A DNA stretch of 64,000 bases from Anaerolineae bacterium (GCA_025060135.1 JANXCY010000002.1:42623-106622), one strand, 5' to 3'; shown: positions 3,639 to 47,446, counted from the stretch's first letter. Translations and numbers: made by a program. The notes: generated from the sequence alone by a model not told the origin.

Positions 3639-4565
3639 ATGGCGGTTCAGAGTTACCCTCGCTCCCAACAGCGGACAGGCCGCCTGGAAAGGCGGGAAGC
3701 GCTTACGTTTTATCTATGCATTTCCCCCTGGTTGCTGGGCCTTCTTCTGTTTGTTTTGGGGCCGATGGTGGCCTCGCTGATCATCAGTTTCACCCAATGG
3801 GACCTGCTCAGTCCCGCCCGCTTCGTCGGTCTGCAGAACTATCAGAAAATGTTCAACGGCGATCCCCTTATCTGGCAGTCGCTGAGAGTGACGGTCGTTT
3901 ATACGAGCGTGTACGTACCGATGGAGATGGTAGGAGGACTGATTTTGGCCCTCTTGATGAATCAGAGGCTGCGTCTGTTCGGCCTGTTCCGCACGGTCTG
4001 CTACCTGCCTTCGGTCTTGCCTGGGGTCGCCTTCGTGATCGTGTGGATGTGGATTCTCCATCCGGATGTGGGGCTGCTCAACACCCTGCTCTCCTGGGTG
4101 GGGATTCAGGGTCCCCGCTGGCTGGCTGATCCTCGCTGGGCGCTCCCTGCCCTGCTGATGATGAGCCTCTGGGGGCTCGGCCGAAGTATGGTTATCTATC
4201 TGGCTGGCCTCCAGAGCATCCCTCAGTACCTCTACGAGGCTGCGGCCATTGATGGAGCCAGTGGCTGGCAATCCTTCTGGAAAATCACCTTGCCAATGTT
4301 GTCGCCTACCGTCTTCTTCAACCTGGTGCTCAGCGTTATCAGCACCTTTCAGACCTTTACTAGTGCTTTTATCGCCACCGACGGAGGGCCTTTGGACGCC
4401 ACACTGTTCTATGTGCTTTACCTCTTCCGTCAGGCGTTTCAATACTTCAACGTCGGCTATGCCTCAGCTATGGCCTGGGTGCTGTTCGGGATTATCTTTG
4501 CTCTGACGTTACTGATTGTGCGCTCCTCCGATCGCTGGGTCTACTACGAGGGCGAAAGACGATGA
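3639..4565 (+). CDS. sugar ABC transporter permease (MalF/UgpA-like)
   Basis: Six-TM permease with an EAAxxDGA-type motif (YEAAAIDGASGWQSFWKITLP). Confidence 0.85.
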   Translation: MAVQSYPRSQQRTGRLERREALTFYLCISPWLLGLLLFVLGPMVASLIISFTQWDLLSPARFVGLQNYQKMFNGDPLIWQSLRVTVVYTSVYVPMEMVGGLILALLMNQRLRLFGLFRTVCYLPSVLPGVAFVIVWMWILHPDVGLLNTLLSWVGIQGPRWLADPRWALPALLMMSLWGLGRSMVIYLAGLQSIPQYLYEAAAIDGASGWQSFWKITLPMLSPTVFFNLVLSVISTFQTFTSAFIATDGGPLDATLFYVLYLFRQAFQYFNVGYASAMAWVLFGIIFALTLLIVRSSDRWVYYEGERR

Positions 4566-5446
4566 AAAGTGGGGACATTCCGTCCATAAAGCCGATGTCT
4601 TACCGAAGGCTCTCTCACTACGCCTGCAAGGGGCTACGTATCGCCCTGGCCTACTTGCTGGCGGGAACAGTAACGTTCCTGTTCCTTTTGCCCCTGCTGT
4701 GGATGATTTCCTCTTCCCTCAAGCCCGATTACCAGGTTCTGGAGTTTCCGCCTCGCTGGTTTCCCACTCCCGTTCAGTGGTCCAACTATCCGAAGGCTCT
4801 CACCTACGTGCCCTTTGGTCGCTACATCCTCAACACCCTCTTCATATCGATGATGGTCATCGTTGGTCATATCCTATCCTGCGTTATCGTCGCTTATGGC
4901 TTTGCCCGGCTGCGTGCCCCGGGCAAAGACCTGCTCTTCTTGGTTTTGCTGGCCACTATGATGCTGCCCTACCCTGTGACAATGATTCCCCTCTACATCG
5001 GCTTTAAGACCGTTGGCTGGGTCAACTCCTTCTGGCCGCTGATCGTCCCCGCTTTCTTCGGTAGCCCCTTTTACATCTTCCTGCTACGTCAGTTCTTCCT
5101 GACGATTCCACCGGACCTGGAGGATGCCGCTCGTATTGACGGCGCCAACTTATTGCAGATTCTCTGGCACGTTCTGCTGCCTAATCTGAAACCAGCTATT
5201 GCCACGGTGGTCGTCTTTTCCTTTCAGGCATCCTGGAACGACTTTTTGCCCCCGCTCATCTATCTCCACGACCAGTCCAAGTATGTTGTATCCCTGGGGC
5301 TCAGTTTCTTTCGCAGTAGTTACGATATTCGCTGGAATTACCTGATGGCTGCCTCGCTGGTGACGATTTTACCGGTAGTGATTGTCTTCTTCCTGACCCA
5401 GCGGCTCGTTTTAAAGAGCATCGCTCTGACCGGAGTAAAGGCCTGA
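4562..5446 (+). CDS. sugar ABC transporter permease (MalG/UgpE-like)
   Basis: Permease with EAA-loop (DLEDAARIDGANLLQILWHVLLP). 4-nt overlap with the upstream permease gene. Confidence 0.85.
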   Translation: MKSGDIPSIKPMSYRRLSHYACKGLRIALAYLLAGTVTFLFLLPLLWMISSSLKPDYQVLEFPPRWFPTPVQWSNYPKALTYVPFGRYILNTLFISMMVIVGHILSCVIVAYGFARLRAPGKDLLFLVLLATMMLPYPVTMIPLYIGFKTVGWVNSFWPLIVPAFFGSPFYIFLLRQFFLTIPPDLEDAARIDGANLLQILWHVLLPNLKPAIATVVVFSFQASWNDFLPPLIYLHDQSKYVVSLGLSFFRSSYDIRWNYLMAASLVTILPVVIVFFLTQRLVLKSIALTGVKA

Positions 5447-5454
5447 TCGTTATT

Positions 5455-5482
5455 TTGACAATTCTCTGCAACAGCATATAAT
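5455..5482 (+). promoter_or_regulatory. consensus sigma70-type promoter (TTGACA-16-TATAAT) upstream of the Fur-family gene
   Basis: ttgaca attctctgcaacagca tataat read directly. AGGAGG-like RBS (taaggaggtagc) before the ATG at 5519. Confidence 0.6.
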
Positions 5483-5518
5483 TGCATTAACCCCCCTCCG
5501 CTTTTGTAAGGAGGTAGC

Positions 5519-6004
5519 ATGGCCCACTGCCACACCTTAATCGCGGCGTTGCGCCAGCAGGGATGTCGGATGACCCCTCAGCGGGAGATGATCGTGGAGG
5601 CCCTGGCCCACAGTGGCCGCCACATGACCGCTGAGGAAGTCCTAGGGGTTGTCCGGCAGAAGACGCGCGCGGTCAACATCGCCACCGTCTACCGGACGCT
5701 GGACCTGCTGGTGGAGCACGGGCTGGCGACCCGCACCGACCTGGGCGAGGGCCGGGTGGTCTACGCGACGGTCCGGCACGGGCCCCACATCCACCTGGTC
5801 TGTCGCCGCTGCGGACAGGTGCAGGAAGCCGACGCGGCCCTGCTGGCCTCCCTGACTGCCGCCCTGCAAGAACAATATCACTTCTGGTGCGACGCGGGTC
5901 ATCTGGCACTCTATGGGCTCTGTGAAGAGTGCGAGCAAACGGAGCACCGAATCCGCAACACGGAATACGTGAAACGTGAAGGAGGTCATCATGCTGCAGA
6001 GTGA
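5519..6004 (+). CDS. Fur-family metal-responsive transcriptional regulator (Zur/Nur-like)
   Basis: Fur fold: HTH region, HHH..LVC..CG and C-terminal CxxC pairs (CRRCGQVQEA..., CEEC). Confidence 0.8.
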   Translation: MAHCHTLIAALRQQGCRMTPQREMIVEALAHSGRHMTAEEVLGVVRQKTRAVNIATVYRTLDLLVEHGLATRTDLGEGRVVYATVRHGPHIHLVCRRCGQVQEADAALLASLTAALQEQYHFWCDAGHLALYGLCEECEQTEHRIRNTEYVKREGGHHAAE

Positions 6005-6959
6005 GGTCCTTCCATCCCCGACCCCTATGCACATCCCGGACGGGTTCCTGAGCATAGGTGTCGTCATCGTCTGCTGGGTGCTGAGCATCATCGGCATCGG
6101 AATCGCGCTGGCGCGGACCCGGAAGACCCTGGGCGAGCGGCAGGTGCCGGTGATGGGCGTCCTGGCCGCGTTCATCTTCGCCGCTCAGATGCTCAACTTC
6201 ACCATCGCCGGCGGCACGTCGGGCCACTTCCTGGGCGCGGCGCTGGCGGCCATTCTCCTGGGTCCCTGGGCCGCCATGCTCACCATGACCACCGTCGTCG
6301 CCATCCAGGCCCTCCTGTTCCAGGATGGGGGACTGCTGGCCCTGGGGGCGAACATCCTGAACATGGCTGTCATCGGCCCCATTGTCGCCTACGGCTTCTA
6401 TCGGGGAGTGCGGACCCTGGTGGGCAACCGCAAAGGGAGCACGCTGACGGCAGGTTTCGTCGCCGCGTGGGTCTCCATCGTGGTCGCGGCGGCCGCCTGC
6501 GCGGTGGAACTGGGCTTCTCTGGCACATCGCCCATCGGCATCGCGCTGCCCGCGATGGCCGGAATCCATGCCCTCATCGGCATCGGTGAGGGGCTGATCA
6601 CCCTGGGCGCGCTGGCGCTGGTGCTGGCCACCCGACCGGACCTGGTGGAAGCGGAACGGGCACCGGCTCCGGCCGGGATGCGCTGGGTCTGGGGCGGACT
6701 GGCCCTGGCCATCGTGCTGGCTCTTCTTTCCCCCCTGGCCTCCCCCCACCCGGATGGCCTGGAGCGGGTAGCGGAAGACCTGGGCTTCATCGAGCGGGCT
6801 CAGGAGCCCTTCTATGAAGTTATCCCGGACTACGTCTTCCCCGGCATCCCCAACGAAGCGCTGGCGACCATGATGGCGGGGGTCGTGGGGACACTCATCG
6901 TCTACGGGATCGCGGTCGGCCTGGCCGCGCTTTTCCGCCGGAGGGCCCAGACGGCCTGA
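5976..6959 (+). CDS. cbiM: ECF-transporter substrate-capture component CbiM/NikM with C-terminal PDGLE (CbiN/NikN-like) extension
   Basis: N-terminal MHIPDGFLS motif typical of CbiM/NikM; 327 aa with a C-terminal PDGLERVAEDLGF segment plus TM. Probable true start ATG at 5991. Confidence 0.8.
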   Translation: MKEVIMLQSEVLPSPTPMHIPDGFLSIGVVIVCWVLSIIGIGIALARTRKTLGERQVPVMGVLAAFIFAAQMLNFTIAGGTSGHFLGAALAAILLGPWAAMLTMTTVVAIQALLFQDGGLLALGANILNMAVIGPIVAYGFYRGVRTLVGNRKGSTLTAGFVAAWVSIVVAAAACAVELGFSGTSPIGIALPAMAGIHALIGIGEGLITLGALALVLATRPDLVEAERAPAPAGMRWVWGGLALAIVLALLSPLASPHPDGLERVAEDLGFIERAQEPFYEVIPDYVFPGIPNEALATMMAGVVGTLIVYGIAVGLAALFRRRAQTA

Positions 6960-6980
6960 CCTTCTACCCTGCAAACCACA

Positions 6981-7031
6981 TAGCGCAGGCCACCGTAGCG
7001 CAGGCTTCTGTAGCGCAGGCCGTCCGGCCTG
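6981..7031 (+). repeat. three tandem copies of (g)tagcgcaggc; the last runs into a 20-bp element agcgcaggccgtccggcctg containing a hairpin
   Basis: Read directly at 6981-6990, 6995-7005, 7010-7020. The 20-mer at 7012-7031 recurs with one mismatch at 8041-8060. Confidence 0.6.
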
Positions 7032-7071
7032 CAAGTGAGCGCCTTGGATCTGGCCAACCAGAAGATTCCCT

Positions 7072-8037
7072 ATGCGCAGAGCGATTCTTTTCTTGGGAGT
7101 ACTGGTACTTCTGGCCGGTTGTGCCCGGCCTCAGGCCCCTTCAGGCGGCGGGGAAGGAGCAACCCCGGCCCTGTCTCCGGCCGCGCTGGGGGCGGGGGAA
7201 AAGTTGCGGGTCGTCGCCACCACTACCATCGTCGGCGACGTGGTGGCTCAGGTTGGGGGCGACGCGATTCAGTTGTCGGTGCTGCTTCCCCTCGGCGCCG
7301 ACACCCACACCTACGAGCCCCGGCCGTCGGACCTGGCGGCCCTTTCCGGAGCCCATGTCCTTTTCATCAACGGGCTGGGCCTGGAAGCGTTTCTGGAGCG
7401 GGCGCTCTCCAGTGTGGGCGACATCCCCGTCGTCTCCGTATCCGAAGGCATCCGGCCCAGAGCCCTGGAGGCCCACGAGCACGAAGAGGGGCATGAGGGA
7501 GAGCACGAACACGAAGTGGACCCCCATGTCTGGACGGACGTGCGCAACGTGATGGTCTGGGTGGAGAACATCCAGCAGGCCCTCAGCGCGCTGGACCCCG
7601 GGAACGCGTCCCTCTACGCCGCCAACGCCGCCGCGTATCGCAGGGAACTGGAAGCCCTGGATGCCTGGATTCTGGAACAGGTGGCCCAAGTCCCTCTGCA
7701 GAACCGGAAACTGGTTACCAACCATCCGACCTTCGGCTATTTCGCCGACCGGTATGGTTTTGAGCAGGTGGCAACGGTCTATCCGGTGAGCCCTGCGTCT
7801 GAGCCTTCGGCCCGGGAGATCGCCGAACTGGAGGAGACCATCCGGCAGTTCGGCATTCCCGCCGTCTTCGCCGAGACGACGGTCAACCCCAAACTGGCCG
7901 AACAGGTGGCGCGCGATACGGGGGTTCGCCTGGTTACCCTGTACACGCACTCCCTGGGCGGCCCGGGCAGCGGTGCAGAGAGTTACATTGCGATGATGCG
8001 CTACAACGTGGCGGCCATCGTGGACGCGCTGAAATAG
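7072..8037 (+). CDS. metal ABC-type substrate-binding protein, TroA/ZnuA family, with His-rich loop
   Basis: Cluster A-I SBP signature (VVATTTIVGDVVAQVGG..., NHPTFGYFADRYG) and a HEHEEGHEGEHEHEVDPH loop characteristic of ZnuA-type proteins. Confidence 0.8.
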   Translation: MRRAILFLGVLVLLAGCARPQAPSGGGEGATPALSPAALGAGEKLRVVATTTIVGDVVAQVGGDAIQLSVLLPLGADTHTYEPRPSDLAALSGAHVLFINGLGLEAFLERALSSVGDIPVVSVSEGIRPRALEAHEHEEGHEGEHEHEVDPHVWTDVRNVMVWVENIQQALSALDPGNASLYAANAAAYRRELEALDAWILEQVAQVPLQNRKLVTNHPTFGYFADRYGFEQVATVYPVSPASEPSAREIAELEETIRQFGIPAVFAETTVNPKLAEQVARDTGVRLVTLYTHSLGGPGSGAESYIAMMRYNVAAIVDALK

Positions 8038-8040
8038 TGG

Positions 8041-8134
8041 AGCGCAGGTCGTCCGGCCTGAGAGATGCAGGCTCCAGCCTGCGTTGGACCACCTGTGGCA
8101 TTTTGAGGTACAGGCTCACAGCCTGCGCTACGCC
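8041..8134 (+). repeat. downstream copy of the 20-bp element (agcgcaggtcgtccggcctg) plus an inverted copy of the tagcgcaggc motif (cagcctgcgctacgcc)
   Basis: Direct comparison with 7012-7031. Together these flank the ZnuA-like gene. Confidence 0.55.
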
Positions 8135-8210
8135 ACCTTTGGCGTTTTGAGTCCGTTGCAAAAAGCCCGCTTCACCGCCGAGACGCAGAGCACGCAGTTG
8201 ATCCTGGTCT

Positions 8211-9011
8211 ATGCACTTCCACGCGCTGGATACATACGTTCCTGGTCAAAGTCCGGTCCACCGGCTGGACCCCCGGGTCAAACTGGTGCTGACGGTTCTG
8301 TTCATCCTGACCGCCGCGCTGACGCCCGACCGCGCTTGGCTCATCTTCGGGCTGCTGGAAGGGCTGATTCTGGCGGCCATCCTGACCTCGCGGGTCGGGC
8401 TGGCGCTGGTCCAGAAGCGGTCGGCGCTGGCTCTGCCCTTCCTGCTGGCTGCACTGACGGTGGTCTTTGCCCGTCCCGGGGACGCCGGAGATGGGTGGGT
8501 TCTCTTCCTGCCAGGGACACCCTGGGCCGTCAGCGAGGCCGGAATCGGGCGGTTCCTCTCCATCGCTGCCCGGTCGTACCTTTCCGTTCAGGCGGCAGTC
8601 CTCCTGGCCGCCACCACCCAATTCCCCGACCTGCTCTGGGGAATGCAGGCGCTGAAGGTCCCCCGTCTTCTGGTCGCCGTGGGAGGATTCCTGTACCGCT
8701 ACCTCTTCGTCCTGGCCGACGAGGCCCGGCGGATGATGCAGGCCCGGGAGGCCCGGTCGGTGGTATCCGGTGATGAGCGGGCGGGCCGGAGCGTGGCCTG
8801 GCGGGCCCGGGTGACCGGCGCCATGGCGGGAACGCTCTTCCTGCGAGCCTACGAACGGAGCGAGCGCGTCTGGGCGGCAATGGTCGCCCGGGGATACGAT
8901 GGCGAGGTGCGGGTCCTTTTATCTCCCGTCCTCCGCCCGAGCGACTGGCGGGCCGGCGTCGGTTTGGGGCTGCTGCTGGCCCTGATTCTGGCCGCCGCGC
9001 GCGGGCTATGA
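8211..9011 (+). CDS. cbiQ: ECF transporter transmembrane (T) component CbiQ
   Basis: CbiQ-like N-terminus (HRLDPRVKLVLTVLFIL), multi-TM, conserved ARxxR region. Confidence 0.8.
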   Translation: MHFHALDTYVPGQSPVHRLDPRVKLVLTVLFILTAALTPDRAWLIFGLLEGLILAAILTSRVGLALVQKRSALALPFLLAALTVVFARPGDAGDGWVLFLPGTPWAVSEAGIGRFLSIAARSYLSVQAAVLLAATTQFPDLLWGMQALKVPRLLVAVGGFLYRYLFVLADEARRMMQAREARSVVSGDERAGRSVAWRARVTGAMAGTLFLRAYERSERVWAAMVARGYDGEVRVLLSPVLRPSDWRAGVGLGLLLALILAAARGL

Positions 9012-9024
9012 GAGAGGTTGGGCA

Positions 9025-9768
9025 GTGACCCTTCACCACCGCCCAACCCCTCCTTTCCAATCCATGCAACCGGTCATTGAAATTCGCGATTTCCACCTGA
9101 CCTACCCGGACGGGCGGGAGGCACTGCGGGGTGTCCACCTGACCCTGAGGGAGGGGGAAAAAGTGGGGCTGGTGGGGCCGAACGGCGCCGGGAAATCCAC
9201 CCTGATGCTGGCCCTGGTCGGCCTGCTGAAAGGCAGGGGGACGCTTCGCGTATTCGGGGAGGACCTGCACGACGGCAACGCGCGCCGTCTGCGGGCCCGA
9301 CTGGGTCTGGTCTTCCAGGACCCGGATGACCAGTTATTCTCCCCCACCGTCTTTGACGATGTAGCCTACGGGCCCCTCTACGCGGGACTGCCGGAAGCGG
9401 AAGTCCGCCAGAGGGTGGCTTTTGCTCTGAGCCAGGTGGGACTGGACGGGTTTGAGGAACGGCTCTCCCATCACCTGAGCGAGGGGGAGAAGAAACGGGC
9501 CGCCATCGCCACCGTCCTGGCGATGCGGCCCGAGGTGTTGCTGCTGGACGAGCCGTCGGCGGGGCTGGACCCGCGCGCCCGCCGACGGCTGATAGAAGTG
9601 TTGCGGTCTCTACCCCAGACGATGCTGGTCGCCACCCACGACCTGGGGCTGGTGGCGGAACTCTTGCCCCGAACGGTCATTATGGATGGCGGAGTCATTG
9701 TCGCCGATGGCCCCACGGCGGCCCTTCTGGCGGACCACGCTCTGCTGGAACGGCACGGATTAAGATGA
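9025..9768 (+). CDS. cbiO: ECF transporter ATPase component CbiO
   Basis: Walker A GPNGAGKST, signature LSEGEKKR, Walker B LLLDEPSAGLD. Likely start ATG 9064. Confidence 0.85.
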   Translation: MTLHHRPTPPFQSMQPVIEIRDFHLTYPDGREALRGVHLTLREGEKVGLVGPNGAGKSTLMLALVGLLKGRGTLRVFGEDLHDGNARRLRARLGLVFQDPDDQLFSPTVFDDVAYGPLYAGLPEAEVRQRVAFALSQVGLDGFEERLSHHLSEGEKKRAAIATVLAMRPEVLLLDEPSAGLDPRARRRLIEVLRSLPQTMLVATHDLGLVAELLPRTVIMDGGVIVADGPTAALLADHALLERHGLR

Positions 9769-10389
9769 GGCTGGACCCTGGCGATGGCTCCTCATAGCCG
9801 CCAGCACCAGAGCCAGTCCTGCCAGGAAGAGCACCCCGATCCAGAGCCAGTCCAGAAGACCGCCGAGGCCCAGTCCCAGGACCGCCGCGAACAGCACCAG
9901 GGCGATGGCTGGAACGTAGGCCCACGAACGACGGGTCAGCAGGGCCACCAGCAGAAATGTCAGGCCCAGACCCAGGAAGAAAATGCTGCCAGTATCCACA
10001 TCCTCCACCGATTCCGAGAGGCCCGCAACAGCCGCCAGAGTCAGCAGGACACCGCCGTTGAGGATAGCCCACCAGTGATAAGTGTTGGTCAGGTAGATAG
10101 CCCAGAAGGCCAGGCCAATGCTCCCCAGGAAGATGACCCCGTTCCACTCGCCCGGCAACAGTCTTGCGATGCTCAGCCCCAGCAGAAAGAATCCAGGGAT
10201 CGCCGCCCACCATTGGGCACGGGGATGGACGAAAAACAGGTAAAGGAAGGCTGCTCCTCCACTGAGACTCACCAGTCCCCAGAACAGGTCCACCCCCCAT
10301 GGGATCACCCCCACCCGCTCCAGCAATGTGAGGGCTCCCCAGATAATGAGCAACAGACCCACGATGATGCGCCAGTCTAAGCGTTTCAT
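9760..10389 (-). CDS. hypothetical polytopic membrane protein
   Basis: Internal start MKRLDW at 10389 is preceded by AGGAGG and avoids overlap with the next gene. Six or more predicted TM helices; no recognisable family. Confidence 0.5.
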   Translation of the reverse strand: MKRLDWRIIVGLLLIIWGALTLLERVGVIPWGVDLFWGLVSLSGGAAFLYLFFVHPRAQWWAAIPGFFLLGLSIARLLPGEWNGVIFLGSIGLAFWAIYLTNTYHWWAILNGGVLLTLAAVAGLSESVEDVDTGSIFFLGLGLTFLLVALLTRRSWAYVPAIALVLFAAVLGLGLGGLLDWLWIGVLFLAGLALVLAAMRSHRQGPASS

Positions 10390-27840: not shown

Positions 27841-28947
27841 ATGCGTCCCGCGACCTGCGCCCTGCAACCTGCGGCTTGCGACCTGCGCTCTGCGGCCTGC
27901 GACTTGCGACGCGCGTCCTGCTTCCTGCTCCTTGTATCCTGTTTCCTGCTTCCCCTTTCCGGCTGTATCCCTTCCGACTCCACTCCGGCAACAGGCCAGG
28001 CGACCTACATCCCGCCCACTTGGTTGCCGCTGGCAACGGCCACCCCATCCCCAACGGCGACACCGGCCCCGGCGCTGACACCGCTTCCCACTGCCACCCC
28101 GATGCCAACGGCCACCCCGATCCCAACGCCCACTTTCACCCCCCGGCCAACGGCGACGCCGACGCCGACGCCAACGCCCACTCCCATCTGCGCGGGTCTC
28201 TCCGGTCGGATCGAGGTCGGCTCCTATCCCAGCCGGGTCCTGGGCCGGGCTGCAACGTACCGGATTTATCTCCCTCCGGGCTACGACTCCTCGCCCGTGT
28301 CCTACCCGGTGCTCTATCTCCTCCACGGTTATCCATACAACGAGACCCACTGGGACCGGTTAGGGGTGGATGAAGCCGCCGAAGCGGGCATCTGCTCGGG
28401 GGCTTACCCGCCCTTCATCATCGTTATGCCCAACTGCGACCCGGCCCCGGATGGGATTTTCGTCCGCACCAGCGGCGGAGACCACTCAGTAGAAGGGTTG
28501 ATCGTGAACGAACTTATCCCCCACATCGACCAGACCTACCGGACGTGGGGCAGCCGGGAGGGACGGGCGATTGGGGGCATCTCCCGGGGCGGTGTCTGGT
28601 CGCTGGAGATCGCCTTCCGCCGTCCGGACCTCTTTGCCACGGTGGGTGCACACAGCCCAGCCCTCTCGGTCAACTATCCGTTGCCCGTCTACGATCCCTT
28701 TAACCTACTGACGCAACCGGCGGTGGCCTCCCTGCGCATCTGGCTGGATGCCGGGGATACGGACTGGGCCTGGGTGGGCACCGACCGGATGCATCGGGCA
28801 TTGGTGGAAAAGGGGATTCCCCATGAATACGCCGTGGGTGAAGGCGGCCACACCGATGATTACTGGTCGCGGATGATCCCGGCGTATCTGGCCTTCTACA
28901 CGGCCGCCTGGGTGGGCGAGTTGCCTACTCCCACACCTGGGCCGTGA
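27841..28947 (+). CDS. secreted lipoprotein esterase (putative esterase / enterochelin-esterase-like alpha/beta hydrolase) with PT-rich linker
   Basis: Lipobox LSGC, TPTPTPTP linker, LYLLHGY...GGISRGGVWSL esterase family motifs. Probable true start TTG at 27904 (M-RRASCFLLLVSCFLLPLSGC). Confidence 0.75.
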   Translation: MRPATCALQPAACDLRSAACDLRRASCFLLLVSCFLLPLSGCIPSDSTPATGQATYIPPTWLPLATATPSPTATPAPALTPLPTATPMPTATPIPTPTFTPRPTATPTPTPTPTPICAGLSGRIEVGSYPSRVLGRAATYRIYLPPGYDSSPVSYPVLYLLHGYPYNETHWDRLGVDEAAEAGICSGAYPPFIIVMPNCDPAPDGIFVRTSGGDHSVEGLIVNELIPHIDQTYRTWGSREGRAIGGISRGGVWSLEIAFRRPDLFATVGAHSPALSVNYPLPVYDPFNLLTQPAVASLRIWLDAGDTDWAWVGTDRMHRALVEKGIPHEYAVGEGGHTDDYWSRMIPAYLAFYTAAWVGELPTPTPGP

Positions 28948-35823: not shown

Positions 35824-37119
35824 CTACCACCTGCTCGGGTCTATGTGTCTGCCAATCGGGCTCTCCGCCACCGCCTCCAGAAATGCCTCCGGAGGCACCA
35901 CGCCGGTCGCCCGCAGGATGGTCAGCAGGGCATAGAGGGCGGCGTTACGCGCGCCGGCCCGTCCGCGAAAATCGGTTATCCGGACCTCCGCGCCTGTCTC
36001 CGGCACCGGCAGAGACGCGTCCAGCCAGAGGATGCCGCCCCGCATTTGGTCAATCCGCTTCCGTTGATTCTCCAGCCCATCCGCCGAGGTTACCACCATC
36101 ACATCGGGTTCGGAGACGCCGTGGTAGAAAATAGGGCTCCGGGAAAGGACGATTTCGGCCGTGGAGAACCCCACGCCTACGGTAACCGGATACATGCTCT
36201 TCTTGGTAGCATAAAGGCCCGCAGCGATGGCCGCTTGAGCCAGCAGTTCCGCCGCCTGCTGCACGCCTTCTCCGGCTGAGCCGGCCAGGATCAGGGTCAT
36301 CCGGCCTGCCAGGGGAGACGAATGCTTCGGGAGGACCGGAGGCATATCCAGCAAAGACGCCGTCTCCCGGCGGGCGGGGCGAAAGGCGGGACGGGTGGGG
36401 CCCGTCCAGACCCCCGGTTCATAGCCGGTCTCCCGGGCCAGTTCTCTCAACCGGGGGCCCGGGTTCGCCCCTCCCAACCCGGTCTGGGCATCCGGCCTCA
36501 GCCCCAGGTCCGGGTTCATCTTCACGCCGTAACTGACGCAGATTTCCAGTACCTCCACCAGCGCGAAGCCCTCCACCTCCAGCGCCTGGCGCAGGACGTC
36601 GGAAAAGTCGCCCAGGCCGACGACGCGGGCCGCGAAGGGCGCGCCCGCATCCAGCACCAGCCGGGGCAGGTCGTGGTGGGGGAGAGGGTAGCCCTGGGGG
36701 GTAAGAACGGTCCGGAAGCCGGTGGGGGTCAGGCCGCTGGGTTGCCCGCCCGTCATCCCGTAGAGCATGTTGTTGTGGACGACGACGGTCAGGTCCACAT
36801 TCATCCGGGCCGCCTCCAGGATGTGCTGGAGGCCAATGGTGGCGCCCCCGTCGCCGATGTAGACGATGACCTTCTTCTCCGGCGGGAGGCCCATGGCGAT
36901 GCCCGCCGCCAGCGCGACGGACCGTCCGTGGAGGCCGTGGACGGTGTGGGTGGCGAAGTTCCCGTCCACAATGCCATGACAGCCGATGTCGGTGACCAGC
37001 ACCACGTCCAGTGGGGAGGCGCCCAGTGCCTCCAGCGCCTTCACGGTGTTGCGAACGATGAGGTGGTGCCCACAGCCCTTACAGTACGGGAGTTCGGGTT
37101 TGATCAGGAAGCGGCTCAT
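35824..37119 (-). CDS. korB: 2-oxoacid:ferredoxin oxidoreductase beta subunit (TPP-binding) fused to gamma subunit
   Basis: N-terminal CKGCGHH and GDGG TPP motif (beta). The C-terminal about 150 aa match the gamma-subunit family (ILAGSAGEGVQ..., VVTSADGLEN). Confidence 0.8.
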   Translation of the reverse strand: MSRFLIKPELPYCKGCGHHLIVRNTVKALEALGASPLDVVLVTDIGCHGIVDGNFATHTVHGLHGRSVALAAGIAMGLPPEKKVIVYIGDGGATIGLQHILEAARMNVDLTVVVHNNMLYGMTGGQPSGLTPTGFRTVLTPQGYPLPHHDLPRLVLDAGAPFAARVVGLGDFSDVLRQALEVEGFALVEVLEICVSYGVKMNPDLGLRPDAQTGLGGANPGPRLRELARETGYEPGVWTGPTRPAFRPARRETASLLDMPPVLPKHSSPLAGRMTLILAGSAGEGVQQAAELLAQAAIAAGLYATKKSMYPVTVGVGFSTAEIVLSRSPIFYHGVSEPDVMVVTSADGLENQRKRIDQMRGGILWLDASLPVPETGAEVRITDFRGRAGARNAALYALLTILRATGVVPPEAFLEAVAESPIGRHIDPSRW

Positions 37120-38243
37120 CGGACCACCTCCCGGGCAATTTCGTCGGGCCGGATCATCCGCCCAATGGCGGTAACAAGCCGGACGTGGGGCGGGATGCGC
37201 CGCCCGAAGAGCAGGTGTGCCAGTTGGCCCTGGTGGTTCTCCTCGGCAATGACCACACGCGGGTAGCGGTCTACCGTCTCCAGGTAGACGGCGGGAAGCG
37301 GTAGCAGGGTCCGGGGAATCAGCAGGGAGACCGGCACACCCTGGGCCCGCAGGGCCGCCACCGCCTCGCGCGCCGCGCCGGAGGTGATGTCCCAGGTTAC
37401 CACCAGCGTCTGGGCGCCCTCCTGTTCGTCCAGGCTGTAGAGGACGGGGGTCCGGGACTCCACTTTGGCCGGGAGGCGGCGGGTGTTGGCCATGGATTCA
37501 TCGCTGGTATGCTGAATGATGCCGCAGCGGTCGTGGGTGGAGGCGTTCAGCCGTACCTGATGCTGGTCGTTGCCCACCGGCAGGAAGGGCGGGACCAGCC
37601 CGTCGCCGGGGTCATAGGTGCAGTACGGGCCGGGGCCGTCGTAGAAAGTCCGGTGGACCGGTTCTATCTCCGCCAGGCGCGCCAGGTCAAAACTCTCCTG
37701 GGTCATCACCATCTCTTTGGAGGTCAGGAGCACCACCGGCGTCCGCAGGTCCACCGCCGTCTGCAGGGCGACGGGCGGGAGGAGCCAGCAGTCTTCCAGA
37801 TCAGAGATGCAGAAGACCGGGAGCGGGTAGCCGCCGGACATCAGGCCGTTCAGCAGGAAGAGGTCGCCCTGGGCGCCGGCCGTGGCCGAGCCGGTGGCCG
37901 GGCCCAGCCGCTGGACCAGGATCACCAGCATGGGGAGTTCCATCATGTAGGCCATATTGACGGACTCCACCATCAGGGCGAATCCCGGGAAGGAAGTGGC
38001 CGAGACGGGAAGGTGCCCGGCGGCGGAGAGACCGGCCATCCACTGCAGGGCGGTGATTTCGTCCGGGGCTGGCAGGGCAATGGGAAAGCGACGGCTGGCG
38101 TAGAAGAAGATGAGGCTGGCCGGAGTAATCGGGTAGCCCACGTAGGCATCGGCTCCGGCCCGGACGCAGGCCTCGGCGATCAGTCGGGAACCGTCAACCA
38201 GGACAGGGTAGGATCGGGTTTCGTTCATATGCTTTACCACCAA
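37116..38243 (-). CDS. korA: 2-oxoacid:ferredoxin oxidoreductase alpha subunit
   Basis: KorA/PorA family (YVGYPITPAS). The tracked ORF begins with TTG; the ATG at 38228 is the likelier start. Confidence 0.8.
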   Translation of the reverse strand: MVVKHMNETRSYPVLVDGSRLIAEACVRAGADAYVGYPITPASLIFFYASRRFPIALPAPDEITALQWMAGLSAAGHLPVSATSFPGFALMVESVNMAYMMELPMLVILVQRLGPATGSATAGAQGDLFLLNGLMSGGYPLPVFCISDLEDCWLLPPVALQTAVDLRTPVVLLTSKEMVMTQESFDLARLAEIEPVHRTFYDGPGPYCTYDPGDGLVPPFLPVGNDQHQVRLNASTHDRCGIIQHTSDESMANTRRLPAKVESRTPVLYSLDEQEGAQTLVVTWDITSGAAREAVAALRAQGVPVSLLIPRTLLPLPAVYLETVDRYPRVVIAEENHQGQLAHLLFGRRIPPHVRLVTAIGRMIRPDEIAREVVR

Positions 38244-38314
38244 GACACGAAGACACCAAGTTTAATTTTTAATTGTTAATTTTTTAGTTTCTTCGTGTCT
38301 TGGTGTCTTCGTGG
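38238..38314. repeat. perfect 15-bp inverted repeat (cacgaagacaccaag / cttggtgtcttcgtg; extendable to about 23 bp) flanking a 38-bp AT-rich core
   Basis: Arms at 38246-38260 and 38299-38313. Lies between the recombinase gene 3' end and the korA 5' end. Confidence 0.6.
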
Positions 38315-40536: not shown

Positions 40537-40650
40537 CGCTGGTCCTCGTCGGAGGGAGTTTCACCGCAGAGAACGCGGAGAACCCAGAGGGAAAGGGAAC
40601 AATGAAAAATTCGGTGTTCTGTGCCCTCTGCGCCTCTGCGGTGAGAACCA

Positions 40651-44318: not shown

Positions 44319-46037
44319 ATGGCACAGAAGATCGTCATTGATCCCATCACCCGCATAGAGGGCCATCTGCGCATTGAGGCCCGGATTGAGGACGGGCGCG
44401 TCGCCGAGGCCTGGGCCTCGGGCACCATGTTTCGGGGGCTGGAAATCATCCTCAAGGGCCGCGACCCCCGCGAGGCCTGGCTGATGGCCCAGCGAATATG
44501 AGGGGTCTGAACGACGGTGCATGCCGTCGCCTCCGTGCGAGGCGTAGAAGACGCTCTGGGCATTCCGATTCCGGATAACGCGCGGATTATCCGCAATCTC
44601 ATTGCGGGCATTCAGTACGTTCAGGACCACGTCATCCACTTCTACCACCTCCATGCGCTGGACTGGGTGGATATTATGGAAGCGTTGAAGGCCGACCCCC
44701 ACAAAACGGCCCAACTGGCGCAATCCATCTCCGACTGGCCCAATTCCAGCCCTGACTATTTCCGCACCCTCAAGGAGAAACTGGATGCCTTCGTCCGCAG
44801 TGGCCAACTGGGCATCTTTGCCAATGGCTACTGGGGCCATCCGGCCTACCGGCTGCCACCGGAGGCGAACCTGCTGGCCGTAGCCCACTACCTGGAGGCG
44901 CTGGACTGGCAGCGAGACGTCATCCGGGCCCACGCCATCCTGGGCGGTAAGAACCCCCATCCCCAGACCTATCTGGTAGGCGGGGTGGCCATCCCGGTGG
45001 ACCCCGATAGCGAGACGGCGCTGAACGCCGATAAACTGGCTTTCCTGAAACGGCTGTTCACGAAGGCCCTGACCTTCGTCCAGCAGGTCTACATCCCCGA
45101 TCTGCTGGCGATCGCCTCGTTTTATAAGGACGAATGGACAGGCATTGGCGAGGGGCTGGGCAACTTCATGGTCTACGGCGACTTCCCGGACCGGGCTGGG
45201 AATTTCCTGTTCCCATCGGGCATCATTCTGAACCGGGACCTGAGCCAGGTCCATCCGGTGGACCAACGGAAGATCGCCGAGTATGTGGCTCACTCCTGGT
45301 ATCAGTATGCGGAGGGCGATCGCGTCGGCAAGCATCCCTGGGAAGGAGAGACGACACCGAACTACACGGGCCCCCAGCCGCCCTACCAGTACCTGAACAC
45401 TGCGGGCAAATACTCGTGGTTAAAGGCGCCCCGGTACGACGATCAGCCTATGGAAGTGGGGCCGCTGGCGCGGGTGCTGGTGGCCTATGCCTCCGGCCAC
45501 AAACGAATAAAGGAACTGGTGGATAGCGTCCTGAAGACGCTGGGCGTGGGGCCCGACGCCCTCTTCTCCACCCTGGGCCGGACCGCGGCGCGTGGGATTG
45601 AGACCCTGGTCGTTGCAGAGAAACTGAACGCGTGGGTAGACGAACTGGCAGAGAACATGGCGCGCGGCGACCTGGCGGTCCACAACGGGGAGAAATGGGA
45701 CCCGGCCACCTGGCCGAAGGAGGCAGAAGGATGGGGGCCGCATGAAGCGCCGCGCGGTGCCCTGAGCCACTGGGTGCGCATCGTGGACGGCAAAATCGCC
45801 AACTATCAGGCGGTGGTCCCCTCTACTTGGAACGGGTCCCCGCGAGACGCGCAGGGGCGGCCTGGCGCCTACGAGGCCTCCCTGGTGGGCACCCCCGTCG
45901 CCGACCCGGAGCGGCCCATAGAAATCCTGCGCACCATCCACTCCTTTGACCCATGTATGGCCTGCGCGATCCACGTTACGGACGCGCGCGGCCAGGAGGT
46001 AACCCGTATCCGCCTGAATGACTGGACCTGCCCGTGA
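44319..46037 (+). CDS. hyaB: [NiFe]-hydrogenase large subunit; single reading frame with two in-frame TGA codons at the N-terminal Cys-x-x-Cys Ni-ligand positions (candidate Sec codons)
   Basis: N-terminus MAQKIVIDPITRIEGHLRIEA... and L1 motif read as AQRI-[TGA]-GV-[TGA]-TTVH (44499-44501, 44508-44510). C-terminal DPCMACAIH motif plus cleavable extension intact. Track ORFs 44319..44501 and 44517..46037 are in the same frame. Confidence 0.8.
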
Positions 46038-46543: not shown

Positions 46544-47446
46544 GTGAACGGAGAAAAGACCGAACGCAGGATGAGCCGTCGGGAGTTTCTAGGCCTCTCC
46601 GCGCTGGGGCTGGGCATCTCCCTGATCGGCGCCCGTCCTGTGGCTGCGGCCCGCGCGGCCTCTCCTGACGAAGTGGCCATTCTCTACGACCCGGTCAAAT
46701 GCGTCGGCTGCAAGGCCTGCCAGATGGCCTGCAAGCGCTGGAACCGACTCCCTGCCGAGAGCACCGACCCGCTGGGCATCTACGAATCCCCCCGGGACCT
46801 CTCGGCTATCACCTGGAACATCATCAAACTACGGCGGACGCAAACCGGCTGGCATTTCTTCAACTACCAGTGCATGCACTGCACCGACGCAGCCTGTGTG
46901 GAAGTCTGCCCGACAGGTGCACTGGCCCATGACCCGCTGGGGTTCGTCGCCCTGAACCGGGATCGGTGCAATGGGTGTGGCTACTGTACTCAGTTCTGCC
47001 CCTACGGCGTCCCCCACCTGCGGGTGGAGAACGCGCTGACCGGAGCGGCGAAGTCGGCCAAGTGCACCTTCTGCCAGGACCGCCTCTGGGAGGGCATCGG
47101 AGGGCCTGCCTGTGCCGAGGTCTGTCCCGTTGGCGCACTGGCCTGGGGCCGGCGCGGGGAACTGCTGGAAAAGGCCTGGGCCCGGGTGGCGGAACTGCAC
47201 GCCCGGGGGATGGATGTCCGCATCTACGGCGAGACCGAGGCGGGAGGACTCCATCGGCTGAGTATCCTGCTGGATGAGCCGGAGCAGTACGGCCTGCCCT
47301 CTGCCCCGAAGACCCCGGCCTTTGCCCGGGCCTGGCAGCGGATCATTCAGCCGCTGGGCAATGTGGCCTTCGGCGCCGCGCTCTTGGGCATCCTGGGCGC
47401 CTTCCTCTTCGTCCGTCGGAAGATCCGCATGGAGGAAGTGAAATGA
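46544..47446 (+). CDS. hydrogenase-associated 4Fe-4S ferredoxin-type subunit (HybA-like) with Tat signal and C-terminal TM anchor
   Basis: SRREFLGLSALGLG Tat signal, four CxxCxxCxxxCP-type cluster motifs, C-terminal hydrophobic helix. Confidence 0.8.
   Translation: MNGEKTERRMSRREFLGLSALGLGISLIGARPVAAARAASPDEVAILYDPVKCVGCKACQMACKRWNRLPAESTDPLGIYESPRDLSAITWNIIKLRRTQTGWHFFNYQCMHCTDAACVEVCPTGALAHDPLGFVALNRDRCNGCGYCTQFCPYGVPHLRVENALTGAAKSAKCTFCQDRLWEGIGGPACAEVCPVGALAWGRRGELLEKAWARVAELHARGMDVRIYGETEAGGLHRLSILLDEPEQYGLPSAPKTPAFARAWQRIIQPLGNVAFGAALLGILGAFLFVRRKIRMEEVK

What the first reader, a model, noticed from the sequence alone, without database searches (positions are those of the whole stretch)
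5455..9768. Ni/Co ECF transporter operon with a Fur-family regulator and an embedded ZnuA-like His-rich binding protein flanked by near-identical 20-bp repeats
Gene order is: consensus promoter, then Fur-family regulator (overlapping the next gene), then CbiM/NikM with fused PDGLE extension, then a TroA/ZnuA-family periplasmic binding protein with a HEHEEGHEGEHEHE loop, then CbiQ and CbiO. ECF (CbiMNQO/NikMNQO) transporters normally need no periplasmic binding protein; TroA-family SBPs normally pair with their own ABC permease/ATPase, and none is present here. The SBP gene is bracketed by agcgcaggccgtccggcctg (7012-7031) and agcgcaggtcgtccggcctg (8041-8060), each forming a hairpin. There are also three tandem gtagcgcaggc copies upstream and one inverted copy downstream (8119-8134). 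This looks like a cassette inserted into a pre-existing cbiMQO operon, or a REP-like element pair. Because the window also encodes a [NiFe] hydrogenase, this may be its nickel supply line, with the Fur-family protein acting as a Nur/Zur-type regulator.
Basis: partly seen in the sequence, partly recalled or inferred. Interest (0 to 1): 0.62.

Follow-up and report, generated by a model that had tools for sequence, protein, structure and literature searches.

The report
Binding-protein gene inside nickel ECF operon
An uncultured Anaerolineae bacterium carries a nickel/cobalt importer operon with a zinc-type metal-binding lipoprotein gene among its membrane-subunit genes; relatives keep that gene in the same operon at two different positions, which hints at a binding-protein-assisted ECF transporter, and the flanking 20-bp repeats are incidental.

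Summary
A perfect sigma-70 promoter precedes a Fur-family gene, a NikM-type S component fused to a PDGLE (NikN-like) domain, a ZnuA-family lipoprotein, CbiQ and CbiO.

Close relatives have Fur-CbiMN-CbiQ-(CooT-DUF8180)-CbiO with no binding protein, so the SBP gene is an add-on. The 20-bp repeats are not its boundaries. They occur only in the window and its 91% relative. Relatives at 78-81% have the same gene order with 4-20 nt between the SBP gene and cbiQ.

The regulator is closest to Streptomyces Nur but lacks two of Nur's three Ni-site histidines. A TTGCAW-N4-TTGCAW motif overlaps the -10 box in all orthologous promoters.

The SBP is the orthologue of canonical Zur-box-controlled ZnuA of sister Anaerolineae. 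Its clade has lost znuCB linkage and the Zur box, and it entered the nik operon at two positions.

My best reading (about 0.45) is that the SBP captures metal outside the cell for the ECF importer. The main rival (about 0.25) is that it still serves an unlinked ZnuCB. The SBP shows no sequence divergence from canonical ZnuA, and one clade species keeps a ZnuB orthologue.

The parts
5455..5482 (+). sigma-70-type promoter, TTGACA-16-TATAAT
   Evidence: 12/12 consensus match and the only promoter-like site in 5300-10000. It is conserved in L001, L007, L104, L108 and L003.
5467..5492 (+). candidate operator over the -10 box: CTGCAACAGCATATAATTGCATTAAC. The core GCAT-ATAA-TTGCAT lies at 5474-5487 (6-4-6, Nur-box-like).
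   Evidence: GCAW-N4-TKGCAW occurs once in the window and at the orthologous promoter of every related operon, including upstream of the SBP gene in L003. The Nur box is tTGCaa-N5-ttGCAA (PMC2691836). Binding is inferred.
5519..6004 (+). Fur-family repressor, Nur-like subfamily
   Evidence: PF01475. Best PDB hit is Nur 3EYY at 118 bits; the next Fur scores 76. Nur M-site H33/H88/H90 are kept (H35/H90/H92). Nur Ni-site H70/H72/H126 become R72/D74/H128. H3, C4 and C124 are invariant in orthologues.
5991..6959 (+). Nik(MN) precursor: a 12-aa propeptide (5991-6026, MLQSEVLPSPTP), the NikM-type S component from MHIPDG (6027), and a fused PDGLE/NikN-like domain
   Evidence: PF01891 + PF13190. TtNikM2 4M5B scores 113 bits against 51 for CbiM 5X3X. 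M1, H2, H67, Q94, G101, G102 and N109 are conserved. The propeptide is conserved in 108/120 homologues.
6960..7071 (+). spacer 1: three 15-nt tandem units (6980-7021) running into the 20-mer hairpin CAGGCC-GTCC-GGCCTG (7012-7031)
   Evidence: L006 has two tandem copies and a degenerate hairpin. L001 has a related TCGCA(A/G)GCC pair. L007 has 7-nt repeats. The fold z-score is -1.05.
7072..8037 (+). cluster A-I (ZnuA/AztC-type) metal-binding lipoprotein. Lipobox Cys17. Ligands H79, H152, H218 and H293. Acidic/His-rich loop at residues 133-149.
   Evidence: PF01297 at 315 bits. AztC 5W56 at E = 6e-56.
8038..8210 (+). spacer 2, about 155 nt absent from L001/L007/L026. It holds the second 20-mer (8041-8060), a 44-nt tandem duplication (8062-8151) that includes the inverted GCCTGCGCTAC (8121-8131), and a half copy of a dispersed repeat (8170-8197).
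   Evidence: L006 has one 44-nt unit. The fold z-score is -0.51.
8211..9011 (+). ECF T component (CbiQ/NikQ)
   Evidence: PF02361; TIGR02454 at 134 bits, above its cut-off.
9025..9768 (+). ECF ATPase (CbiO/NikO)
   Evidence: PF00005; best NCBIfam matches are cbiO/ECF ATPases.

Best explanation
The locus is one operon for a group-I ECF nickel/cobalt importer, Nik(MN)QO. It is transcribed from a single consensus promoter whose -10 box lies inside a Nur-box-like operator (TTGCAW-N4-TTGCAW). The first gene product, a Nur-related Fur-family repressor, controls it.

In one clade of uncultured Anaerolineae/Thermoflexales, the lineage's znuA orthologue has become detached from zur-znuCB. It has lost its Zur box and has been placed inside this operon. 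The gene encodes a zinc-type cluster A-I binding lipoprotein.

Proposed mechanism:
1. When the sensed metal is scarce, the repressor leaves the operator.
2. Nik(MN) is made with a 12-residue propeptide. The propeptide is removed to free the N-terminal amine of the 4-nitrogen nickel site.
3. The lipoprotein is exported and anchored on the outer face of the membrane. It gathers Ni/Co through its acidic/His-rich loop and its 3-4 His site.
4. It raises the supply of metal to the Nik(MN) site. NikQ and NikO2 then drive import.

The 20-bp and other repeats around the SBP gene are fast-evolving spacer repeats. They play no demonstrated part.

Shown: gene content, residue conservation, operator conservation, the history of the SBP gene, and the distribution of the repeats. 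Inferred: co-transcription, the metal sensed, propeptide cleavage, and above all any hand-over from the SBP to the ECF S component.

Confidence differs by part. The operon identity, the captured znuA orthologue and the incidental nature of the repeats stand at about 0.85. The SBP-feeds-ECF step stands at about 0.45, and that is the figure given.
For: - Ni/Co ECF identity comes (all TtNikM2 site residues kept).
- The nickel theme in relatives: CooT and DUF8180 lie inside the operon, and an Opp/Nik-type ABC system lies next to it.
- The regulator is closest to Nur. Nur is known to bind a nikMNOQ promoter, and its box is tTGCaa-N5-ttGCAA. The operator-like motif is conserved in six promoter versions.
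- The SBP gene sits in the operon in two different places. It lies between cbiMN and cbiQ in the window, L006, L001, L007 and L026. It lies between the promoter/operator and fur in L003. Spacers to the next gene are 4-20 nt.
- SBP-less operons in L104-L108 show the ancestral state. One genome (GCA_041082215.1) has both the SBP-less ECF operon and a canonical Zur-ZnuACB operon.
- The clade of ECF-linked and stand-alone SBPs is monophyletic, 93/100.
- Canonical sisters have a perfect Zur box TGAAAATGAsTTTCA. No clade locus has one.
- No ZnuB gene lies next to any clade SBP, in the 64-kb window or on the 398- and 432-kb contigs as far as hit lists show.
- ZnuB orthologues of the clade form one narrow lineage only, yet the SBP stays under strong purifying selection.
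- There is no promoter-like or terminator-like site in either spacer.
- Precedents for extracytoplasmic helpers of Ni ECF systems are NikK/NikL (PMC2667541) and the Fur-regulated His-rich lipoprotein Hrl with an ECF system in Mycoplasma genitalium (PMC6968530).
Against: - The SBP shows no sign of a new partner or a new metal. Its ligand set (H,H,H + H/G/D) is the same as in ZnuCB-linked relatives.
- Its distance to canonical ZnuA of L110 (68.6%) equals that between two canonical ZnuAs (70.8%).
- Only 1 clade-specific fixed substitution stands against 141 shared conserved positions.
- At least one clade species keeps a well-conserved ZnuB orthologue elsewhere in its genome (accession neighbourhoods). 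There the SBP probably still serves ZnuCB.
- Relatives run the ECF operon without an SBP gene in it, and three clade SBPs are stand-alone genes.
- No ECF transporter is known to use a binding protein, and I found no report of one.
- The regulator lacks two of the three Nur Ni-site histidines, so the sensed metal is uncertain.
- I could not scan the window's whole genome for ZnuCB.
Confidence: 0.45

Rival explanations
1. The SBP is still an ordinary zinc-binding ZnuA that docks on a ZnuCB permease/ATPase encoded elsewhere. Its gene merely sits in the nik operon, either as a neutral relocation or to share a metal-starvation signal. The ECF transporter works without it.
For: The SBP has a zinc-type 3-His site identical to ZnuCB-linked relatives. 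It shows no rate acceleration and only one clade-specific substitution. A ZnuB orthologue (77% to canonical L110 ZnuB) is present in the same three MAGs as clade SBP P0039, but on other contigs. Stand-alone SBP genes exist in the clade. SBP-less ECF operons exist in close relatives.
Against: The Zur box present in all canonical sisters is absent from every clade locus. In the operon the SBP gene has no promoter-like site of its own. The gene entered or kept its place in the same operon in two arrangements with 4-20-nt spacers. ZnuB orthologues of the clade are confined to one narrow lineage. None was found for the window, L001, L003 or L007 lineages among hits down to about 70% identity. No ABC-3 gene is in the 64-kb window.
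Confidence: 0.25
2. The whole module has become a zinc system. The Fur-family protein acts as a Zur-like zinc sensor, and the ECF transporter plus SBP import zinc after loss of ZnuCB.
For: The SBP descends from Zur-controlled ZnuA. The regulator lacks the Nur Ni-site that gives Nur its nickel specificity, and it keeps the M-site that can hold zinc. The Mycoplasma genitalium Fur that controls an ECF system responds to zinc.
Against: The S component keeps the square-planar 4-N site of TtNikM2 (M1, H2, H67 and the supporting residues), which is described as selecting Ni/Co. CooT, a nickel chaperone family, lies inside the operon in relatives. In GCA_041082215.1 the same regulator/ECF pair coexists with a separate Zur-ZnuACB operon. 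The operator is Nur-box-like, not Zur-box-like.
Confidence: 0.1
3. One reading: the SBP gene is a recently inserted cassette, or lies between a REP-like element pair, and the near-identical 20-bp repeats mark its ends.
For: The repeats are real and far above chance. The SBP gene is absent from the ancestral operon. The left tandem copies and right inverted copies resemble the arms of dispersed inverted-repeat elements elsewhere in the window.
Against: Relatives with the same gene order lack the downstream repeat altogether (L001 17 nt, L007 4 nt, L026 about 20 nt). Copy numbers differ even in the 91% relative L006. The SBP gene's GC content matches the operon. The SBP gene is the vertical orthologue of the neighbouring lineages' znuA. 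No transposase or integrase gene adjoins it. The 20-mer has no other good copy in 64 kb or in 0.82 Mb of related loci apart from L006.
Confidence: 0.05

Closest known systems
Nik(MN)QO / NikMNQO group-I ECF nickel transporters (TtNikM2 structure 4M58/4M5B; S. coelicolor nikMNOQ under Nur)
   Same: The window has a NikM-type S component with M1-H2...H67 and the supporting residues, a fused N-type (PDGLE) domain, a CbiQ T component and a single CbiO ATPase. A Nur-related Fur-family repressor is present, and a TTGCA-type palindromic operator lies at the promoter.
   Different: A cluster A-I binding-protein gene lies inside the operon. The operator spacing is 6-4-6 rather than 6-5-6. The repressor lacks Nur H70/H72. 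The S component has a 12-residue non-signal propeptide.
NikKMLQO systems (extra periplasmic NikK/DUF4198 and membrane NikL in place of NikN)
   Same: These are nickel ECF systems with an additional extracytoplasmic protein encoded in the operon. NikK/NikL homologues also occur as orphans.
   Different: Here the extra protein is a ZnuA-family two-lobe SBP lipoprotein that is unrelated to NikK. NikN (PDGLE) is still present, whereas K+L and N are reported as mutually exclusive.
Mycoplasma genitalium Fur regulon: His-rich lipoprotein Hrl plus a CbiMNQO-like ECF module (PMC6968530)
   Same: A Fur-family repressor with a dyad operator co-regulates an ECF module and a His-rich surface lipoprotein. 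The system is linked to nickel accumulation, and the authors speculate that the lipoprotein feeds the ECF system.
   Different: Hrl is not a ZnuA-family protein and is unlinked from the ECF genes. No S component is known there. Here the S component is a clear NikM.
Canonical Zur-ZnuA-ZnuC-ZnuB / AztABCD zinc importers
   Same: The SBP is the orthologue of ZnuA of sister Anaerolineae (about 68-70% identity) and is closest to AztC among solved structures. It has three His ligands, a flexible acidic/His loop and a lipoprotein anchor.
   Different: No adjacent ZnuC/ZnuB, Zur gene or Zur box is present. The fourth ligand position is His here (Gly in most clade members) instead of AztC Asp279. The gene is transcribed with ECF genes.

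Membership tests
Group-I ECF Ni/Co transporter (NikMNQO/CbiMNQO) | S component with an extracytoplasmic N-terminus Met1-His2 and His67 that form the 4-N metal site, plus Q94/G101/G102/N109 | tested here: met
   Gap-free alignment to TtNikM2 from residue 1; all listed residues are identical.
Group-I ECF Ni/Co transporter (NikMNQO/CbiMNQO) | N-type accessory (CbiN/NikN), T component (CbiQ) and ABC ATPase (CbiO) encoded with the S component | tested here: met
   PDGLE PF13190 is fused to CbiM. PF02361/TIGR02454 score above cut-off. PF00005 is present with best hits to cbiO.
Group-I ECF Ni/Co transporter (NikMNQO/CbiMNQO) | Free N-terminal amine at Met1 (no extra residues) | tested here: inconclusive
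   The gene encodes 12 extra N-terminal residues that are conserved in 108/120 homologues, and 28 of these have Leu/Val/Ile instead of Met before His. This implies cleavage, which cannot be shown here.
Group-I ECF Ni/Co transporter (NikMNQO/CbiMNQO) | Actual Ni/Co transport | not testable with these tools
   This needs uptake assays.
Cluster A-I metal SBP (ZnuA/AztC/TroA, PF01297) | Family fold and sequence with three conserved His ligands | tested here: met
   PF01297 at 315 bits. AztC 5W56 at E = 6e-56. H79, H152 and H218 are invariant.
Cluster A-I metal SBP (ZnuA/AztC/TroA, PF01297) | Asp as fourth ligand (AztC D279, TroA/PsaA type) | tested here: not met
   The position is H293 in the window and L006, and Gly in most clade members. 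The same variation occurs in ZnuCB-linked relatives.
Canonical ZnuABC operon | Adjacent ABC-3 permease and ATPase | tested here: not met
   No ABC-3 homologue is in the 64-kb window or next to any clade SBP. 70 of 100 surveyed loci of more distant SBPs have one adjacent.
Canonical ZnuABC operon | Zur box (TGAAAAT-N-ATTTTCA type) upstream | tested here: not met
   Perfect boxes occur in L109, L110 and other sisters. There is none within 1 mismatch near any clade SBP, and none within 3 mismatches near the operon in the window.
Nur (nickel-responsive Fur-family regulator) | Ni-site His70, His72 and His126, conserved only in Nur orthologues | tested here: not met
   The window has R72, D74 and H128, invariant in six orthologues.
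Nur (nickel-responsive Fur-family regulator) | M-site His33, His86, His88 and His90, and the two CxxC pairs | tested here: met
   H35, H90, H92 and C95/C98/C135/C138 are kept. H86 is replaced by G88, with H87 adjacent.
Nur (nickel-responsive Fur-family regulator) | Nur box tTGCaa-N5-ttGCAA at target promoters | tested here: inconclusive
   A related TTGCAW-N4-TTGCAW motif (one base shorter spacer) overlaps or abuts the -10 box in all six orthologous promoters. Binding was not tested.
REP/MITE-like element pair or mobile cassette | Many dispersed copies of the same element in the genome | tested here: not met
   Two copies plus one 3-mismatch site in 64 kb. Among 0.82 Mb of related loci, copies occur only in L006. 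The whole genome was not available.
REP/MITE-like element pair or mobile cassette | Repeats travel with the inserted gene in relatives | tested here: not met
   L001, L007 and L026 have the SBP gene in the same place without the downstream repeat.

The most novel reading that the evidence does not exclude
This would be the first ECF-type (type III) ABC importer that uses a classical solute-binding protein. A ZnuA-family lipoprotein, left without ZnuCB, would capture Ni/Co outside the cell and load the NikM site. That would blur the textbook rule that ECF transporters are binding-protein-independent, and it would show a zinc SBP re-used for another metal and another transporter class with almost no sequence change.
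Probability: 0.35. Interest if true: 0.85.

Novelty: new variant of a known kind. Interest (0 to 1): 0.6.

Why it matters
ECF transporters are defined partly by working without extracytoplasmic binding proteins. Cluster A-I SBPs are thought to work only with ABC-3 permeases. A conserved, co-transcribed pairing of the two would be a new transporter architecture if it is functional. The pairing arose after the SBP lost its Zur control and, in most of the clade, apparently its permease. It would also be a clean natural experiment in partner and metal switching.

The claim is directly testable with a five-gene operon in E. coli: 63Ni uptake with and without the SBP. If the SBP instead still serves an unlinked ZnuCB, the locus shows zinc and nickel acquisition genes wired to one Nur-like repressor, which is of modest interest.

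The repeat observation itself is ordinary.

Tried and rejected
- **Rfam.** At gathering thresholds (whole window) and at E <= 10 (5300-8300) there is no riboswitch or known RNA in the spacers.
- **RNA folding of both spacers.** Neither is more stable than shuffles, so I dropped the idea of a specific structured RNA element.
- **The 20-bp palindrome upstream of the L003 SBP as an operator.** Rejected. A structurally equivalent hairpin follows the methyltransferase gene in SBP-less L104, so it belongs to the upstream gene. The real promoter/operator copy in L003 lies further upstream.
- **Stand-alone SBP genes at the ancestral znu locus.** Rejected. There are no homologous flanking genes between L024/L027 and L109/L110.
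- **The Fur-type operator upstream of stand-alone SBPs.** Only a weak GCAA-N6-GCAA in L027, degenerate in L025 and absent in L024. Inconclusive.
- **Clade-specific substitutions in the SBP as a sign of a new partner.** One position only.
- **Compositional test for foreign origin of the SBP gene.** None.
- **Genome-contig scan with the single SBP.** It returned only 15 loci, and the source genome is not among the species representatives. A genome-wide count of the 20-mer was therefore not possible.
- **Exact look-up of the window's SBP.** It failed to return its contig.
- **Literature searches for a ZnuA-type SBP with an ECF system.** Nothing found. Rodionov et al. 2006 (PMC1317602) is not held.

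Full report
**1. What is in the sequence**

- A Fur-family gene lies at 5519-6004.
- A CbiM domain fused to a PDGLE domain occupies the ORF 5976-6959.
- A ZnuA-family protein lies at 7072-8037.
- CbiQ lies at 8211-9011 and CbiO at 9025-9768.

The only sigma-70-like promoter in 5300-10000 is a perfect TTGACA-16-TATAAT at 5455-5482. No promoter-like or terminator-like site falls in the two spacers that flank the SBP gene.

The SBP starts MRRAILFLGVLVLLAGC, a lipoprotein signal whose Cys17 is invariant in 30 relatives. It carries the loop EAHEHEEGHEGEHEHE.

The repeats are exactly where stated.
- The 20-mer lies at 7012-7031 and 8041-8060 with one mismatch. Chance expectation in the window is 0.01 matches.
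- Three 15-nt tandem units lie at 6980-7021, and an inverted copy at 8121-8131.
- The downstream spacer also contains a 44-nt tandem duplication at 8062-8151.

The source is an uncultured Anaerolineae MAG. An identical SBP is protein MCS7177841.1 on a 145-kb contig.

**2. The transporter and its regulator**

The S component aligns without gaps from its MHIPDG to residue 1 of TtNikM2 (113 bits, against 51 for a true CbiM). It keeps Met1, His2, His67, Gln94, Gly101, Gly102 and Asn109. The structure paper identifies these residues as the square-planar 4-nitrogen Ni/Co site and its supports.

The true start is ATG 5991. It sits 7 nt after a GGAGG, and the 12 residues before MHIPDG (MLQSEVLPSPTP) are conserved in 108 of 120 homologues. 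In 28 of those homologues the residue before His is Leu, Val or Ile, which cannot be an initiator. A propeptide must therefore be cut off to free the metal-binding amine. That last step is inference.

The Fur-family protein is much closer to S. coelicolor Nur (3EYY, 118 bits) than to any Fur, Zur or PerR structure (76 bits or less). Nur binds the nikMNOQ promoter of Streptomyces, and its box is tTGCaa-N5-ttGCAA (PMC2691836).

Two of the three histidines of the Ni-site that defines Nur orthologues are replaced. H70 and H72 become R72 and D74, and the change is invariant in six orthologues. H3, C4 and C124 are new invariant candidate ligands. I therefore call the protein Nur-related, not Nur, and the sensed metal remains an inference from context.

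The promoter is conserved in every related operon. It carries a TGCA-rich dyad whose core is TTGCAT-ATAA-TTGCAT. The window reads CAGCAT-ATAA-TTGCAT at 5472-5487, with the strict GCAW-N4-TKGCAW match at 5474-5487. This core lies over the -10 box. In the 77% relative L108 it lies just downstream as CTGCAA-TAAA-TTGCAA. The motif occurs once in the 64-kb window.

**3. History of the SBP gene**

I fetched about 110 related loci and scored their neighbours by tblastn.

Operons with CbiMN 91% identical (L104-L107) read Fur-CbiMN-CbiQ-CooT-DUF8180-CbiO with no SBP. One at 77% (L108) reads Fur-CbiMN-CbiQ-CbiO. The genome of L108 (GCA_041082215.1) also holds L110, a canonical Zur-ZnuA-ZnuC-ZnuB operon whose ZnuA is 68.6% identical to the window's SBP. 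L109 is the same kind.

These canonical operons, and some 70 more distant ones, have ZnuC/ZnuB next to the SBP. They usually also have a Fur-family gene upstream with a clear Zur box, TGAAAATGAsTTTCA.

The SBPs that lie in ECF operons, together with three stand-alone SBPs, form one clade. NJ bootstrap support is 93/100, and the clade is sister to L029/L109/L110. Inside the clade the gene occupies three contexts.
- It lies between cbiMN and cbiQ in the window, L006, L001, L007 and L026.
- It lies between the promoter/operator and fur in L003, with 9 nt to fur.
- It stands alone next to a SpeE-like membrane protein gene in L024, L025 and L027.

None of these loci has a Zur box or an adjacent ABC-3 permease.

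**4. The repeats**

Only L006 (SBP 91% identical) shares the spacer sequences. It has two rather than three upstream tandem units, a degenerate hairpin, and one rather than two 44-nt units.

L001, L007 and L026 have the same gene order but only 17, 4 and about 20 nt between the SBP gene and cbiQ. About 155 nt (8041-8196) are therefore peculiar to the window's lineage.

The upstream spacer differs in every lineage but always contains short GC-rich tandem motifs. L001 has TCGCA(A/G)GCC twice, and L007 has GGTCGCA-type heptamers.

Other spacers of these genomes behave the same way. The window itself has similar arrays at 27842-27953 and inverted-repeat elements with tandem-octamer arms at 38233-38312 and 40556-40647. 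The stretch 8170-8197 is a half copy of that element type and matches 25/25 nt in an unrelated locus.

The spacers do not fold better than shuffles and match no Rfam family. The SBP gene's GC content equals that of the operon. I conclude that the repeats are real but incidental. They are a fast-evolving spacer feature, not cassette ends.

**5. What the SBP does**

Two lines of evidence pull in opposite directions.

*For a role with the ECF transporter.* The gene lies inside the operon in two independent arrangements with very short spacers. It has lost the Zur box and comes under the Nur-like operator. The locus has a nickel context: the NikM site, CooT in relatives, an adjacent Opp/Nik-type ABC system in L003/L104, and a [NiFe] hydrogenase at 44517-46037 in the window.

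ZnuB orthologues also appear to be missing from most of the clade. A search with the L110 ZnuB lists hits down to about 70% identity. The only clade-related ZnuB forms four clusters that are at least 91% identical to one another. Nothing lies at 78-90% identity, where orthologues from the window, L001, L003 or L007 lineages would be expected. By contrast, the clade has about 40 SBP clusters and 43 CbiMN clusters. An SBP kept under strong purifying selection without its permease needs another job.

*Against.* The SBP is unchanged. Its ligand set matches that of ZnuCB-linked relatives. It shows no rate acceleration. Only one clade-specific fixed substitution stands against 141 shared conserved positions.

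The narrow ZnuB lineage also sits in the same three MAGs as the clade SBP P0039. Accession numbers are 194-929 apart and the genes are on different contigs. In that species the SBP very likely still serves ZnuCB in trans.

I therefore put the ECF-helper model at about 0.45. The unlinked-ZnuA model stands at about 0.25, a zinc-converted module at about 0.1, and the cassette/REP reading at about 0.05.

**6. Comparison with known systems**

The core is a member of the Nik(MN)QO group-I ECF family, and every sequence-level criterion tested is met. The regulator fails the Ni-site criterion for Nur. The SBP is a member of the ZnuA/AztC family but fails the operon-level criteria of a ZnuABC system.

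The nearest functional analogies are two. NikKMLQO systems have an extra periplasmic NikK. Mycoplasma genitalium has a Fur-controlled His-rich lipoprotein with an ECF module, for which a feeding role has only been speculated.

I found no report of a ZnuA-type SBP linked to an ECF transporter in the searchable literature. That library is incomplete.

**7. Verdict**

The interesting part is the conserved ZnuA-in-ECF-operon arrangement, not the repeats. It is a new variant of known kinds, and it is worth a direct uptake experiment and a whole-genome check for ZnuCB.

Noticed in passing
window 5991-6029 (and P0121-P0240): The NikM-type S component is made with a conserved 11-12-residue, non-hydrophobic N-terminal propeptide, ML(R/K/Q)SE(V/I)LPSPxP, in 108/120 homologues. 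In 28 of them the residue that must become the metal-binding N-terminus is Leu, Val or Ile rather than Met. This implies proteolytic maturation by an unknown protease, not a signal peptidase-type leader.
   Followed up: partly
window 38233-38312 and 40556-40647; half copy 8170-8197; L071 98-122: These are dispersed inverted-repeat elements. Their arms are tandem octamers (for example CACCGCAGAGAACGCGGAGAAC ... CTCTGCGCCTCTGCGGTG) around an AT-rich or short loop. The 25-nt stretch CACCGCCGAGACGCAGAGCACGCAG is identical in an unrelated, AT-rich locus (L071). Similar sequences are read as spurious N-terminal extensions of SBPs in databases (for example P0038, P0046). The element family was not identified.
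   Followed up: partly
window 5955-5990; L003 7425-7475; L007 4915-4965; L104 6690-6725: A heptamer ACGTGAA is tandemly repeated between fur and nikMN in all relatives, with variable copy number (2 in the window, 5-6 in L003). In the window the repeat and the Shine-Dalgarno sequence are read as a C-terminal extension of the Fur-family protein (…NTEYVKREGGHHAAE), which gives the 14-nt gene overlap.
   Followed up: no
window 27842-27953: A run of about 11 imperfect heptamers (TGCGACC/TGCGCCC, then TCCTGCT) lies at the very start of the ORF 27841-28947 (esterase family). It has the same flavour as the GGTCGCA repeats upstream of the SBP gene in L007.
   Followed up: no
window 44517-46037 and 46544-47446: A [NiFe] hydrogenase large subunit (PF00374, 731 bits) lies here with a 4Fe-4S dicluster protein downstream, about 35 kb from the nickel importer operon. 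A 2-oxoacid:ferredoxin oxidoreductase pair lies at 35824-38243 on the minus strand.
   Followed up: partly
L003 1-5800; L104-L107 1-6155: In relatives the ECF operon is directly preceded by an Opp/NikABCDE-type ABC system (two BPD_transp_1 permeases, a fused double ATPase and an SBP_bac_5 protein). An FmdE/zf-dskA_traR gene and a methyltransferase accompany it, forming a larger putative nickel island. In the window the upstream neighbours are sugar-type ABC permeases instead.
   Followed up: no
L003 9435-9902; L007 8089-8970; L104 9188-9673: A CooT (nickel chaperone family) gene and a DUF8180 gene (His/Glu-rich, HWIEHNEEHAEEF) lie between cbiQ and cbiO in several relatives. They are absent from the window and L001. 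DUF8180 may be a further metal-handling protein.
   Followed up: no
L024 7600-7880; L027 7745-7885; L025 700-760: Stand-alone SBP genes of the clade are preceded by long tandem arrays: units of about 58 nt in L024, and GATAAGC heptamers in L027/L025. Between the array and the SBP start L027 and L025 also carry a conserved TTGACG-17-TACCAT promoter with a CCGCAA-N-TGCGG dyad; no such promoter was seen in L024. Their regulator is unknown.
   Followed up: partly
window 4500-5450 versus 5500-9800: The sugar-ABC permease genes just upstream have a GC content of 0.50-0.55. The whole nik operon has 0.63-0.70, and the window mean is about 0.62. The step coincides with the promoter.
   Followed up: no
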